A DNA stretch of 64,000 bases, from positions 310,001 through 374,000 of the forward strand of contig JAWMAR010000283.1 in the NCBI GenBank assembly GCA_036785375.1. The letters are read 5' to 3'. The position numbers and the translations under genes were made by a program. The stretch comes from Leucoraja ocellata. Taxonomy: Eukaryota. Shown piece by piece: positions 7,571-50,804 of this stretch (position 1 is the stretch's first letter; the number at the start of each line of letters is the position of its first letter). Below the pieces are notes generated by a model. The model had not been told where the DNA came from and made no database searches. It saw nothing but the letters and a program-made list of their open reading frames with translations.

Positions 7571-7786
<216 letters not shown>

Positions 7787-8517: not shown

Positions 8518-8776
8518 NNNNNNNNNNNNNNNNNNNNNNNNNNNNNNNNNNNNNNNNNNNNNNNNNNNNNNNNNNNNNNNNNNNNNNNNNNNNNNNNNNN
8601 NNNNNNNNNNNNNNNNNNNNNNNNNNNNNNNNNNNNNNNNNNNNNNNNNNNNNNNNNNNNNNNNNNNNNNNNNNNNNNNNNNNNNNNNNNNNNNNNNNNN
8701 NNNNNNNNNNNNNNNNNNNNNNNNNNNNNNNNNNNNNNNNNNNNNNNNNNNNNNNNNNNNNNNNNNNNNNNNNNNN
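8518..8776. other. Assembly gap (259 N)
   Basis: Run of N. Confidence 1.
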
Positions 8777-43302: not shown

Positions 43303-45273
43303 AAAGTCTTCCTCATGTCCAGAGTGAGGGCTTGTTTGGATCCATCTGTTTCTTTGCACATGATCTCCATTTAGATGTGCCTTCAAAGTCCATCGGTTGA
43401 AGTCAAAAAAATATTTGCAGATATCCGGGGTTGCTCACAAACTTAATATTGCTTTGTTCTTTACCGCCATTCAGTTTGATGGCAAGTGTGAACATGAGGT
43501 AAATTGAATTCGTTTGGATCTGGTAATCGTAACTGAAACACTCTCGTTCTGCACAGGGTCACTTTGTGCATTCTGACTGTCGAACAGATGTTTGTTTACT
43601 GATGATTTGATTTAATGATATCTGCGCTGCTTGTTAAAAGGACCCTCGCTATTTCCCTGAAGAACATCTCTTTCTTCAGTTGCTTAGCTAGTTTTAATGC
43701 CTGAAGCAGCTTTTCAACTGGAGCTTAGGCAAGACAAGTAATTGTGTTGGGTGACATTTTTTGACAACAAGATAAAATGCAAATCTATAGAGGATTCTTC
43801 TCTTCAATAATCGGTATATAGATAGAAAATATTTTATAATGCACTTGCTAAAACATTGGCAAGATTATTACAATTCAGTTAGAAGGTCCATTCTGAAATA
43901 AGAATGTTTACTTTAGAATAATAAGCTATTTGTCTATGACTATTTTGCATCAAAAATCAGTCATGGAATCATGTTTTTTTGGGCTCCTGGTTCATTCTTG
44001 TTTTTTACTCCCCATCCCCCAATTCCACAGCCATGAGACATTTGTTACATGCCATTCGCATGAGTTGTGTTTCTTGCACTAAGTTGGACATAAAAGACAG
44101 TGGAGCAGTTTGGCTTCATTTCAAATGCAAACATTTGGCCCCTGCATAGAGTTTGCGAACATTTTAGATAGTAAGAAATACGAGGGTTTTTTTTTCGAGA
44201 GGTGGAGTGAGTGCAGTTTCTGCTGGGAGGCGGGACTGCTAAATTAAAACCAGACCTGCAATGATTAATTTCAAATAGCTTTTATGAAACGATTTTTATC
44301 TGGCTTTTTTTGTAAAGAACAAGAATGTGGTAATTTTCTGGTAACAGTGACAGAGCGTCAAGCTGTATCATGATTTGTCAAATCAGAAACAAAATCCAAG
44401 GTTGTCACAATTTTTTCATAACTGCGGCACTTTGATGGTGCGCTGGATGCACAATGGTTGTTAAACGTTTAAAAATATATATAACAGTCTGCAACTGTAG
44501 GTTGTCTAGAAGAGGATTAATTTTAAAGCCGTTAATGGAAGTGCATGGTGCCCCATCTCCATTTCGGATACGTTTCCACCTTTTTATTCCCCAGAATGAC
44601 AAAATATATAAGCGTAGATGTATCTTTCAGTATAAAATCAAAAGTGTATGTTTGGACTTGTGGAAAAAAGTTGTCTGTTTTTCTGAGCACATGTCTTTTA
44701 GTACCCCCCCTCGTTCTGATGGGCATTTGCTTTTTTTTTGTGCCCTGGGTGTGGAAATCTCAGTTGAAAAGGTCAGCGTTGCCAGTCACTAACCTCCAAA
44801 TGACCCCTTGACTTTACAGTCTAAAACTGCAGGGGCTGCGAATAAGCAGGAGCCTTTCTGTACCAGCACTTATTTGCTGCTGTGGTGATAAAACTTCAGA
44901 CAACCTAATTGATGGGCTTGCTGACATAACAATACCTTGTGAAAGCAGAGAGTGGCAAAGCCTGGTCTTCATTTATGGACAGCTGGAAGGGGTGTTACAA
45001 CCACTCTCGGAAGAAAGCAACCGGGTTGAAGCAATGAACTTTTACCATGTTTGTGCCTCTTTGCCCCGACAGACATTCCATCTCAGGCAACTAAATATAT
45101 TAAAATGGTTGACCGTAAGAGGACTTTAAATCAAGAGATGACACGACGGACAGCTGATTTTATTTCTGTGCCTTCAACAAATCAAAATGAGTGGGATGGG
45201 GGTGGGGGGAGAAAGCAACTCTGTTTTTGTTTAATTGAGAAGTAAAATCTACCCTTTTACTGTTTTCTTTTAG

Positions 45274-45332
45274 GTTCATTAATGCCAGGAGAAGAATAGT
45301 ACAACCTATGATCGACCAGTCCAATCGAGCAG
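45274..45332 (+). CDS. meis2: Meis2 exon 10 (end of homeodomain helix 3)
   Basis: Acceptor ttttag|G completes the Trp codon from exon 9; encodes FINARRRIVQPMIDQSNRA; 59 nt; donor is AG|gcaagt (GC-AG intron). Confidence 0.96.
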
Positions 45333-45911
45333 GCAAGTCTCAAGTAGTAACTGTATTCAAGTCCTGCAGGCACAAATCTTCATCAAGTTATTCATCAGGA
45401 GTTCCTTCACCTGGTAAATAATCCCGGCAGGCAGGCAGGCAGGCAGGCCACCATCTGGGAGAGCTAACTATCCAGAATTCTGGTGCAGGGAGAAACCTCA
45501 CTAACCGATGCCAACTGGAATTCCCCACCCTCACTTTCCCAAGGCTGCTTTTATCTCTGGTTAATAAGGGTAATTGGGCAAATATCTTCGCACCACAAAT
45601 AACTTACTGAGTGGGTGCCGTTACAGCAGAAATCACTGGTTGTCTTTCTGCCACTGATGCCTTTCTTAACTGCTCACAACTCCTAGGTAAACACACTGTT
45701 ATTATGCCCTGGCTTCTGTGTTGTTTTACTGTTAATAATAACGGTGGGTCCCTTAAAATAATTACTGTTAAAGTCCTCTGAAACATATTGCTCCAGTTAG
45801 TAATTCTAAAGTAAAAAGTAAGCTTGAGTATTGCATAGTGTTCCCTATCATACATTTTATTGCTCTATTGCCACATTTGATGCATGGCAGAAAACATAGC
45901 CCCTAACTGAG

Positions 45912-46225
45912 GCGTCACTGAGGCTCAGCGGTAGAGTTGCTGCCTTACAGCACCAGAAGCATGGGTTCGATTCTGTCAACGGGTACTGTCTGTACGTAGC
46001 TTGTACGTTTTCCCAGTGACCTGCATGGGTTTTCTCCGGGTTCTCTGGTTTCCCCCCACACTCCATAGACGTACTGGTTTGTAGGTTAATTGGCTTCAGT
46101 AAAATTGTAAATTGTCCCTAGTGTGCATAGGATAATGTTAGCGTGCGGGGATCGCTGGACAGCATGGACTTGGAGGGCCGAAGAGCCTGTTTCCATGCTG
46201 TATCTCTAAACTAAACTAAACTAAA
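45912..46225 (+). mobile_element. HE1-like SINE in intron 10
   Basis: Head with ggttcgatt, body, (ctaaa)4 tail. Confidence 0.88.
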
Positions 46226-47737
46226 TAACCACCTAAATAACCTGGGTAAAATTATGTTCTTTTTAGATTCTGTTAATCCCATGATAAAAAATGTTTAATT
46301 TCAGTCTGGGACAGTTTTGCTCTAATTTGGCTTATACACAAAATTGAATCTACAAGCATGTTGTGCCGACCATGGAGTTGTATGCTTCTGTGTTGGTTTG
46401 CCAGAAGCTTTATTGAAGCCTTTTATTGTCACTCACACTGCTTTGATTTGATGTTGATTTGCACCCGCTGCTTTACTTCAATATGTAAAGTGCTTTTTAT
46501 TTCTGTGAATTGTGTACAACTTGTCAAACGTGCTTCTTGGGGATCAGGAATGATACCGTGGTGTGCACAGAGTAGTTTGGGCAAGAGCTAACGTCTGGAT
46601 TTTTGTGACAGCCAGAGAGAAATTTGGTTTGATTTGTCAGGGTATTGTCAGTGCTGCATAACAAAACTCAGTCAATCCTAGCTAGCGCGAGGAACATTTC
46701 CTCTCTCACTCTGCTGAAGGCACTGACTAACTGGGATTTGGGTCTACAGGTGCCTTCTGAGTACCTTGCCCGAGTTCATGTCTTCATGCGTGGGAGAGGC
46801 ATAGCTGCCAAAACCCAATGCTTTCATTTCCCCAAATCATTACTTACATACAATCAAGAACAGCATATTGGAAAGAAACTGAGACTGGTAGGCTTGGCTG
46901 TTTTCTTTTTCATTTTTCTCCCCTATTCTCAAGCTCTGGAAAATATTTTTAGTGTCACCTTCCTTGCCTAAATTGAGAGAAGTCACCTCAAGCTACAGCT
47001 TTAAAGCTTAAAACGAAAACCCATGAAGATATAGAGGTACAGATAGGGAGTTGCCACAAGCATAGCGGGCTGAATGGCCTTCCCTTTCGCTGTGAAATTC
47101 CCTGATCCCATCAATCTGATCTATAAATGTCAGACCCACACTGCAGCATGCATTTAATAAATTAAGGACTTAAGGAACTGCCTGTGTAATTTATTTTTAA
47201 TCATCATAAATTGCATGCCGTTCATAACACTATTCTTAGTTTTATGTAATTTGATAGTATTGATTGAATGAATCCATTAAATGTTTGGCTGGGTGTCTTC
47301 ATGCTTAGAGTGCAATTAGAGAAGGTGTAGCCAATAGTCACAGTTAATTATCATGGGACAATCAGGGCACAATACCCGACTAAGTAATCTTTAATTTAAG
47401 TGACATTGGCTGCACAAGCAGCGGAATACCTCATTCTTGGACAAAATAAGTTTTCAGACCTTCTAGGCACTGAGAGAGGAATTGTACTTTGGAGCACTCC
47501 ATTGTTTCTGCTTTTGCGATATAAAGTTGCACGCACCTTTGATATGTTTTGTTGCGGCTGGGAATGTTTAAATCTGGGGGTCGTTGGGTTGGTGGACGAT
47601 GGCTTGATTTATTTCTTAAAATTGCGTGTATATGTGTTTTGTTCAACAACATACTGTGTCTGCTGTTTCAGGAGTAACTGCTGATTGTTTGGTATGTCTT
47701 TTCTTTCTCCTCTGTGTCCGCGTTTGACTACAATCAG

Positions 47738-47848
47738 GTTTTCTTCTTGATCCTTCAGTAAGCCAAGGAGCGGCGTACAGTCCAGAAGGCCAACCAATGG
47801 GAAGCTTTGTATTGGATGGCCAGCAACATATGGGAATTCGGCCCGCTG
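47738..47848 (+). CDS. meis2: Meis2 exon 11 with alternative acceptors at 47738 and 47759
   Basis: caatcag|GT gives [37 protein letters not shown]; a second acceptor ccttcag|TA 21 nt downstream removes GFLLDPS; donor G|gtaagc. GFLLDPS and GAAYSPEG distinguish Meis2 from Meis1/3. Confidence 0.96.
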
Positions 47849-48116: not shown

Positions 48117-48212
<96 letters not shown>

Positions 48213-48770
48213 CCTTCATCTAGTTTACCAATCGCAAAGCACCGGGGAAGTAAGTACGACCGGGCTGTTTATTCTATCTATTACTGTAGTTACATTTTTT
48301 TTAAATTCCCACCCACCCATTCCTCCAATTTTTTTTTTGCCTTGCCCGTACTTGCATGCTGCTCCAACAAAGGCCCAGTGCAATAGTTTGCCCCATGAAC
48401 ATTCAACCCTATCCCGCAAACTGCAGAAGGTCAACTAGCTCATTTACCATACACAGTGCAAATGAGGTCTGCAAAGCCATTTGTTTTAATTATGGAGCAC
48501 AGCGAATAAAAACGCGAGCAGTGAATGAACAATCGGGACGTTTAAGGGAAAAGAAACATCTTCGGGGCACCCAATTGACTTAAGAGAAATTAACCAGGCT
48601 TCATGAAACGATGAAAGCAAGAAGTGAGACTGTCCTTTGAGTGACATAAATCTGTCAGGAAACGATCGATGCATGAATTATCTTATGTAAAGATGAAATG
48701 TTGCGGTTTGCAATCTATAGTCTGGATGTATGTATGGCACTGGTAACACAACACATTCCTCATTGAGGTT

Positions 48771-48794: not shown

Positions 48795-50517
48795 GTTTAG
48801 GCATATCCATCACCTCCTGTGTGAGATATATATAAAAAAAGAGTCAGGAAACTGTATAAAGAAGCAGTGGCAGATATTAAGAGATGACTGCAAGTGAAGG
48901 AATGGAATTGCCAGCGGAGCTGATTGGCTACCGTCTAAATAATCCATCAGATGGAGTGTGTCCAATGCATGTGATGTTTGAGGGATTCGGATACAGCAAA
49001 CACCAATACATCACATCGTTGAGGCATCCGACCATAAGGTTTATTTAATAACTGAAACTCCTTGCACACACTGAGCCGAATGCTTACATTTAAAAAGAGT
49101 GGCAGATTATTTTGTTATTAAATCGCCTTCAATCATTTTGTATTGTAAGTTGTATATTCTACTGTCAATAAAATGACTTTCCTTGCAGTCACCTAACAGG
49201 ATTGTTTCAGGTTATATAAAATACGATCTTATAGTTTCACGTATGATCTTTGCGGGGGTTACCACGATGCACCAGCTACAGTCAGTTTCCTTCCTTCTTC
49301 TTACAGTATTTCTATAATGCAGTCAAAATGGAACGTTGAAAACAACGTTCCCTAAAACAGTATTTGAAACAGCATTTTCTCAGCTTGGGTAATTCTTAAT
49401 GTAGGCCATATAATTTCTGGCCTATTTAATTACATAACATATTTTATGCTTCATAACCAATTACATTAATGGCTTAATACTAACAATATTATCCTCCCTT
49501 TATTTGATTATGCAGCCAGACAATATGGTATATTTGGTACTTAATTATCATCAACCAGTGAGCATGCTGCTGTGCTGGAATAAACAGGACTGAGTGGGAC
49601 TTATTACACGGTGCAGACTGTATTATTGTCTCAGTATGGTTATGCCAGCATGGTTACTAATAATCTGCAGAATCACTTAACACAATGGCAACCATTTATA
49701 GGACTTCAGTTTACCAGTTTATGGTATAAACACCATCTGCATGCAATTCTATTGGCAAATTCAAGTGGATGAATAGAGGTAAAGTTGATATCCTGTGGTT
49801 CAGACATTATATTGATAGCCATTTTATATTAAAATTAATTCTAGCAAGATGAACGGACACTATGATCTGATTGACATTTACTGACAGATCGTTCTCACTT
49901 ATGCCCACATCCCACGCTCTCAGGTTTGACCCTCTCCCCAACTTCCTTGGCGCTGCAAAGCTAGATCTGTAGCGGCAGTCTGATCATAATACACAACTCC
50001 ACCTGAAACATTTCAAATAACGCAATGAAATAATTTCACCGAATTTCCTAAAAAGACATTTTAAAAAACAATTAGGAGACATTGCATGTACGAAAAAGAG
50101 AGATCCCGTGCAAGAGATTTTCTTCACATTGATGCCTTCCTGACCACTTGCCGTGTTCCTTTTAATAACATCTTCTCTGGTTCTACTTAATTTTCACTTT
50201 TTCTATTGTTTCCTGTATTTTTTCTGCCCGAAACTTGATCCTCCATTCTTTCATGAACCTGTGACCCATGAGTAAAATTGAACACATGGTGATTAAATTA
50301 ATCATTTTGACTTGTCCAGTGTGATTTATTATTATAAAACACATGCGATTATGTAATACAGTGATACGTAATACATCAATATTACTGCAATCCAATGCGT
50401 ATAGAGATGATGTGTCGAGACATGTACAAATAACCAGTAATGAGACATAAGGATATGCTTTTGCAGAATTATTTCTTAATGTTAACACATTGTGTTTGTT
50501 TATTCTTGTCTTTTCAG

Positions 50518-50804
50518 GTTTACAAGGCATGCCAGGGGACTATGTATCTCAGGGTGGTCCTATGGGTATGAGTATGGCACAGCCAAGTTACACTCCTCCC
50601 CAGATGACCCCACACCCTGCCCAGTTAAGACATGGACCCCCAATGCATCCCTATCTCCCAAGTCACCCACATCACCCGGCCATGATGATGCATGGTGGAC
50701 CCCCACCTCACCCTGGAATGCCAATGTCAGCACAGAGCCCCACAATGTTAAATCCTGTAGACCCCAGTGTGGGGGGGCAAGTTATGGACATTCATGCCCA
50801 ATAG
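50518..50804 (+). CDS. meis2: Meis2 terminal exon 13 coding part (long C-terminus, used when exon 12 is skipped)
   Basis: Acceptor ttttcag|GT; encodes GLQGMPGDYVSQGGPMGMSMAQPSYTPPQMTPHP...GGQVMDIHAQ-stop, closely matching the mammalian MEIS2 C-terminus. Confidence 0.97.

What the first reader, a model, noticed from the sequence alone, without database searches (positions are those of the whole stretch)
45332..45421. GC donor of exon 10 followed by an in-frame 81-nt extension with its own GT donor and stop
Seen: the exon 10 donor is non-canonical AG|GCAAGT. The frame stays open through GKSQVVTVFKSCRHKSSSSYSSGVPSP to CCTG|GTAAAT at 45413/45414, exactly 81 nt later and in the same phase; without splicing it ends GK-TAA (45419-45421). 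This allows three products: normal, +27 aa basic/Ser-rich insert next to the homeodomain, or a protein with intact homeodomain but no C-terminal activation region. I recall similar GKS..VTVFKS peptides in predicted vertebrate Meis isoforms but cannot verify this.
Basis: partly seen in the sequence, partly recalled or inferred. Interest (0 to 1): 0.7.

Follow-up and report, generated by a model that had tools for sequence, protein, structure and literature searches.

The report
Known optional Meis2 exon extension (10')
This is an already described, very old 27-amino-acid piece of the Meis developmental regulators; it lies intact behind a weak GC splice site in a cartilaginous fish's Meis2 gene and is likely included in only a minority of transcripts.

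Summary
It is exon 10' of Meis genes, described by Irimia et al. 2011 (PMC3140891): ancestral coding sequence, alternatively spliced since early bilaterians, behind a GC donor in 46% of genes studied, rarely included in vertebrates, lost at least nine times. The peptide is conserved to cnidarians (10-12 of its first 15 residues) and is 24-26 of 27 identical in shark and ray Meis2 gene models. The +27-aa isoform is therefore credible and already annotated, although I obtained no junction reads for this species. The truncated, intron-retaining protein is weakly supported: its stop is variable across species and would be expected to trigger decay. The copy here is slightly worn (a conserved Arg is Cys), and the Meis1-like paralog carries an extra base in 10'. 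The peptide's function is still unknown; a likeness to the conserved block after the TGIF homeodomain is borderline. The scan noted the same feature earlier in another genome (e1-9082108). Verdict: already known, low interest.

The parts
7709..7785 (+). Meis2 exon 9 (middle of the homeodomain)
   Evidence: tblastn of fetched Meis2 protein P0001, 26/26 identical; AG/GT ends
45274..45332 (+). Exon 10, constitutive part (end of homeodomain helix 3), closed by the proximal GC donor at 45333-45334
   Evidence: numbering as in PMC3140891
45333..45413 (+). Exon 10', 81-nt alternative 5'-splice-site extension adding 27 residues in frame; distal GT donor at 45414-45415
   Evidence: homologous peptides in 162 of 203 fetched Meis-search records (the set was selected by this query)
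45365..45367 (+). Cys codon at residue 12 of 10', where 6 of 8 in-frame shark/ray Meis2 records have Arg and 2 have Gly
45419..45421 (+). Stop codon met if neither donor is used (intron 10 read-through)
47738..47848 (+). Exon 11 with its 21-nt 5' extension (upstream acceptor); the downstream acceptor starts the exon at 47759
   Evidence: event described in PMC3140891
48154..48249 (+). Exon 12a, stop at 48210-48212
50518..50804 (+). Coding part of exon 12b, ancestral C-terminus, stop at 50802-50804

Best explanation
This is Meis exon 10': exon 10 of this Meis2 gene has two in-phase 5' splice sites 81 nt apart, and the spliceosome likely uses the upstream GC site in most transcripts and the downstream GT site in a minority, which would add 27 residues directly after homeodomain helix 3. 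Shown: the anatomy, the open frames of all spliced products, and deep peptide conservation. From the paper: the segment is ancestral coding sequence (one exon in cnidarians, always included in nematodes), and vertebrates include it at very low levels. Inferred: the 27 residues are a disordered linker carrying a short conserved motif (hydrophobic run, aromatic residue, basic cluster) that would tune DNA or partner binding next to the homeodomain, and the internal donor lets vertebrates leave it out. Inferred: in this Meis2 copy the constraint is relaxed but not gone.
For: PMC3140891 describes the same event, position, GC donor and low vertebrate inclusion. The window's first 15 residues match 10-12 of 15 in 10 cnidarian records, 12 of 15 in 5 hemichordate records, 10-12 in 19 shark/ray Meis1 records and 13-14 in 8 in-frame shark/ray Meis2 records. 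Of 25 cartilaginous-fish Meis2 records seen, 8 include 10' in frame (six species named), 12 use the proximal donor, 4 carry a shifted or truncated 10', and 1 lacks the homeodomain end. Three Mobula birostris models run from the distal donor into exon 11 in a shifted frame (P0020, P0136, P0138); a predictor would hardly choose that without transcript support (inference). The Meis1-like paralog in this genome has the same GC and GT donors, and the Meis3-like one has a GT donor and no 10', as the paper reports for Meis3. AlphaFold2 gives residues 348-380 of the long shark isoform pLDDT under 50, and no solved Meis chain reaches 10'.
Against: No junction read for the distal donor was obtained in this species. 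Database records are predicted models, and the search selected for 10'; only 15 of 52 members of the main cluster were listed. The X1 models of two skates, Callorhinchus, Carcharodon and Stegostoma lack 10' (P0131, P0132, P0134, P0130, P0129). Between this genome's Meis2 and Meis1-like 10', 9 of 28 codons change the amino acid against 0 of 19 in exon 10, with differences spread 5/5/8 over codon positions, which fits weak protein-level selection. The Meis1-like copy has one extra base. The function of the motif was not tested.
Confidence: 0.85

Rival explanations
1. In this species 10' is a dying relic: it is still open by descent, the distal donor is used only as splicing noise, and no functional +27-aa protein is made.
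For: Loss at least six times in vertebrates. Arg-to-Cys change here and Pro-to-Gln in shark/ray Meis2 against the ancestral motif. Shifted 10' in Mobula birostris and Narcine Meis2 models and in this genome's Meis1-like copy. Skate X1 models lack it.
Against: 24-26 of 27 residues are kept across sharks and rays and 23 of 27 in bird models, with length and frame intact. The shifted cases may be assembly errors.
Confidence: 0.3
2. The stretch is kept mainly as an RNA element that sets the use of the weak GC donor; its coding potential is secondary in vertebrates.
For: Third positions differ in 8 of 28 codons of 10' against 10 of 19 in exon 10 between the two paralogs, and nucleotide similarity extends about 16 nt past the distal donor. 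The sequence persists, with changes, in mammalian Meis2 (dog model P0026).
Against: The numbers are small and I computed no significance test. Conservation to cnidarians, nematodes and hemichordates is at peptide level. This role could coexist with the best explanation.
Confidence: 0.2
3. Intron 10 retention or intronic polyadenylation yields a stable Meis2 with an intact homeodomain but no activation region, acting as a dominant negative.
For: The stop directly follows the distal donor in both paralogs of this genome. A few annotated models end inside intron 10 (P0063, P0067, P0140, P0186, P0188).
Against: The tail after the donor is variable: 22 of 42 read-through records stop at once, 14 of them from one cluster. 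The stop lies 2427 nt before the end of exon 11, a standard decay trigger (established rule, recalled), and the first poly(A) hexamer is at 47156. PMC3140891 reports no such product in the parts I read.
Confidence: 0.08

Closest known systems
Meis/hth exon 10' (Irimia et al. 2011, PMC3140891; parts 1-5 of 8 read: abstract, introduction, methods, results, most of the discussion; supplements not available)
   Same: Same gene family, same exon, alternative 5' splice site inside exon 10, upstream GC donor, conserved coding segment after the homeodomain, same downstream options (21-nt exon 11 extension, exons 12a/12b), absent from Meis3.
   Different: The paper's species list has no cartilaginous fish. 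It reports loss of 10' coding meaning in zebrafish, Xenopus and mammalian Meis2 and stops in chicken Meis2; here Meis2 10' is intact, and duck, passerine, turtle, sturgeon and dog models also show it in frame.
Predicted shark and ray Meis2a long isoforms (e.g. XP_043553936.1, XP_059811702.1, XP_051880896.1)
   Same: Same insertion; the window's long products match P0123, P0125, P0135 and P0141 at 201/204, 194/197, 120/121 and 127/128 residues.
   Different: Residue 12 of the insert is Cys here. These records are computational models, not tested proteins.
TGIF conserved 20-residue block directly C-terminal to the homeodomain (PMC3494694, passages)
   Same: Same place after helix 3 of a TALE homeodomain, with a similar order of Gly-Lys-x-Pro, Thr flanked by hydrophobic residues, then Ser and basic residues.
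   Different: The alignment needs gaps and the statistical support is borderline. In the two TGIF genes of this genome the block lies in the same exon as helix 3, and all 120 fetched TGIF proteins carry it.

Membership tests
Meis exon 10' (PMC3140891) | Host gene is a Meis-family TALE homeobox gene | tested here: met
   Exons 9-12b match named Meis2 proteins, up to 177/177 residues
Meis exon 10' (PMC3140891) | Two in-phase 5' splice sites in exon 10, the upstream one often GC | tested here: met
   GC after 45332 and GT after 45413, 81 nt apart
Meis exon 10' (PMC3140891) | Peptide homologous to the segment conserved in bilaterian and non-bilaterian Meis | tested here: met
   10-14 of the first 15 residues identical across cnidarian, hemichordate and shark/ray records
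Meis exon 10' (PMC3140891) | Frame intact through to exon 11 | tested here: met
   All 4 distal-donor products reach the normal stops
Meis exon 10' (PMC3140891) | Low-level inclusion in transcripts | tested here: inconclusive
   Too few reads on the exon in the one raw RNA run, which is from a relative; only indirect support from gene models
TGIF post-homeodomain conserved block | Significant profile similarity beyond helix 3 | tested here: inconclusive
   29, 98, 112 and 107 of 1000 column shuffles reached the score at four gap costs; best window in 4 of 4 (related) TGIF proteins; hhalign probability 0.7%; single-sequence tests 9/300 and 46/300
TGIF post-homeodomain conserved block | Shared structure or function | not testable with these tools
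   PDB profile matches to TGIF chains end at or before profile position 345, short of 10'; the AF2 model is disordered there
Dominant-negative C-terminally truncated transcription-factor isoform | Stable transcript that escapes decay, and a conserved terminus | tested here: inconclusive
   Terminus variable across records; transcript stability untested

The most novel reading that the evidence does not exclude
Exon 10' encodes the Meis counterpart of the conserved block that follows the TGIF homeodomain, an ancient TALE accessory module for DNA or partner binding. Vertebrates switch it off by default through a GC donor, so all solved Meis homeodomain structures and most assays lack it, and cartilaginous fishes still produce the ancestral form from both Meis1 and Meis2.
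Probability: 0.15. Interest if true: 0.55.

Novelty: already known. Interest (0 to 1): 0.17.

Why it matters
As a feature it adds little: the event, its GC donor and its age were published in 2011, and shark and ray gene models already carry it. It matters modestly because that paper left the function of 10' open, and a motif kept from cnidarians to sharks directly after a homeodomain is unlikely to be inert where it is constitutive. Cartilaginous fishes fill a gap in that paper's species list and place the intact state of Meis2 10' at the base of jawed vertebrates, so the reported Meis2 losses came later.

Tried and rejected
RNA evidence: no RNA holder was listed for the stretch. Four runs were laid on 45150-47600. 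The raw poly(A) run X16 (a relative, about 6% read) gave mean depth 0.5 and 0.23 in the two bins over exon 10 and 0 beyond, which is about one read ending near 45332 (my arithmetic) and too little to use. Contigs of X1 over 45314-45521 and 47224-47377 may be DNA or pre-mRNA. Junctions into exon 11 were not examined. Structure: AF2 on 36 sequences gave no fold for 10', so no fold search was run. An ESM Atlas search gave only Meis/homothorax leads below 0.9. TGIF homology: borderline. The HMM score failed to report for 4 of 12 segments and was not used; PKNOX, PBX, MKX and six IRX segments were not above shuffles by mean BLOSUM score. Literature: 7 searches showed no later functional study of 10' in the held library. 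PMC13379096 passages have 0 mentions of exon 10, and PMC12946277 passages treat only MEIS1 exons 1 and 12. PMC6158717 and PMC4901127 passages gave nothing on this region. PMC147054 and PMC309625 are not held. Supplements of PMC3140891 (RT-PCR figures, exon table) could not be read and may bear on inclusion levels. The 12b rows used a start one base off and were replaced. A sequence look-up in earlier findings was blank.

Full report
Observation. The window holds the 3' part of a Meis2 gene of a cartilaginous fish: exons at 7709-7785, 45274-45332, 47738/47759-47848, 48154-48249 and from 50518 match named Meis2 proteins, up to 177 of 177 residues. Exon 10 is followed by a GC dinucleotide in an otherwise perfect donor context (8 of 9 consensus positions), and 81 nt later by an in-phase GT site (7 of 9). 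The frame is open across the 81 nt and stops at 45419-45421 if unspliced. All eight combinations of donor, exon 11 acceptor and last exon translate to the normal stops. In intron 9 of the same window, 84 of 5000 random start points give a comparable open frame and donor.

What it is. Irimia et al. 2011 (PMC3140891; parts 1-5 of 8 read; supplements unavailable) name this segment exon 10'. They report that exon 10 is alternatively spliced at an internal 5' splice site, which is GC in 46% of the genes studied. The segment is part of one exon in the non-bilaterians studied, always included in nematodes, and often included in amphioxus and hemichordates. [quoted passage not shown] It was lost at least nine times, including all Meis3 genes, and the authors leave its function open. 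Their species list has no cartilaginous fish.

Conservation. A search with exon 10 plus 10' returned 194 proteins, 120 listed. The segment follows helix 3 in cnidarian, tardigrade, nematode, mollusc, hemichordate and vertebrate records. Against the window's first 15 residues the identities are 10-12 (10 cnidarian records), 12 (5 hemichordate), 10-12 (19 shark/ray Meis1) and 13-14 (8 in-frame shark/ray Meis2); the last 12 residues fall to 3-5 in cnidarians. Of 25 cartilaginous-fish Meis2 records seen, 8 include 10' in frame, 12 use the proximal donor, 4 are shifted or truncated in 10', and 1 lacks the homeodomain end (a query-biased sample). Three Mobula birostris models splice from the distal donor in a shifted frame, which suggests transcript support for that donor in rays (inference). 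Against frequent use, the X1 models of two skates and three other species lack 10'.

Own genome. The Meis1-like locus has the same two donors and a recognisable 10' of 82 nt, one base too many; the Meis3-like locus has a GT donor and no 10'. Between the two paralogs, exon 10 shows 0 amino-acid-changing and 10 synonymous-only codons of 19, while 10' shows 9 and 4 of 28. Protein constraint on 10' is thus much weaker than on the homeodomain, while nucleotide identity stays high and runs about 16 nt past the distal donor. In the window's copy residue 12 is Cys where 6 of 8 shark/ray Meis2 records have Arg.

How it most likely works. The two donors compete. The near-perfect GC site likely wins by default; occasional use of the ancestral GT site would insert 27 residues between helix 3 and the activation region. 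AlphaFold2 predicts this stretch as disordered (pLDDT under 50) and no solved Meis chain includes it. A short linear motif that tunes DNA or partner binding is my best inference, and it is untested. Rivals are a decaying relic (0.3), an RNA-level splicing element (0.2, can coexist) and a truncated dominant-negative protein (0.08). For the last, the tail after the donor is variable (22 of 42 read-through records stop at once, 14 from one cluster), the stop lies 2427 nt before the end of exon 11, and the first poly(A) hexamer is at 47156.

A lead. TGIF proteins have a conserved block of about 20 residues directly after the homeodomain (PMC3494694 passages). I found two TGIF exons in this genome and fetched 120 TGIF proteins. 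The 10' profile scores best at that place in 4 of 4 related TGIF proteins, but 29 to 112 of 1000 column shuffles reach the score and hhalign gives 0.7%. The idea came from my recall and was tested after the fact; it is inconclusive.

RNA. No usable expression evidence was obtained, and junctions into exon 11 were not examined, so inclusion in this species remains inferred from relatives.

Verdict. The feature is real, conserved and already known. Seven literature searches showed no later functional study in the held library. Interest 0.17.

Noticed in passing
G000:C283:126848-129991 and 165255-168335 (L001, L022) against window 43777-46915 and L023: A second, inverted copy of Meis2 exons 9 and 10 lies on the same contig, 99.3% and 99.7% identical, roughly mirrored about position 242 kb. 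It is likely two haplotypes joined head to head in the assembly rather than a real duplication.
   Followed up: partly
L003 (G000:C5 about 17933950-17934035): Meis1-like exon 10' has one extra base just after the GC donor (82 nt, frameshift). It may be a real loss or an assembly error; all 19 shark/ray Meis1 records compared are in frame.
   Followed up: partly
L019 and L021 (G000:C5:17885620 and 17842632): Two copies of the Meis1-like exon 9 lie 43 kb apart, with flanks 94-97% identical and several gaps.
   Followed up: partly
P0020, P0136, P0138, P0140: Meis2 models of Mobula birostris and Narcine bancroftii have a shifted 10'; the Narcine model ends right at the distal donor, inside intron 10.
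   Followed up: partly
P0026, P0145, P0149, P0151: Dog, passerine and duck Meis2 models carry an in-frame 10', although PMC3140891 reports loss in mammals and stops in chicken.
   Followed up: no
window 45912-46220: High-copy SINE-like repeat in intron 10, with many copies in the window and very high read depth.
   Followed up: no
window 45427-45449: Short 4-nt tandem repeat just after the distal donor that creates several weak GC-type donor look-alikes (6 of 9) in all three phases; it is absent from the Meis1-like paralog.
   Followed up: no
L027 (G000:C1283 about 49109-49177): Divergent TALE-like homeobox exon (Homeobox_KN match over cut-off) that I could not assign to Meis, PKNOX, PBX, IRX, MKX or TGIF.
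   Followed up: no
window 8518-8776: 259-nt stretch of N in intron 9; unrelated to the finding.
   Followed up: no
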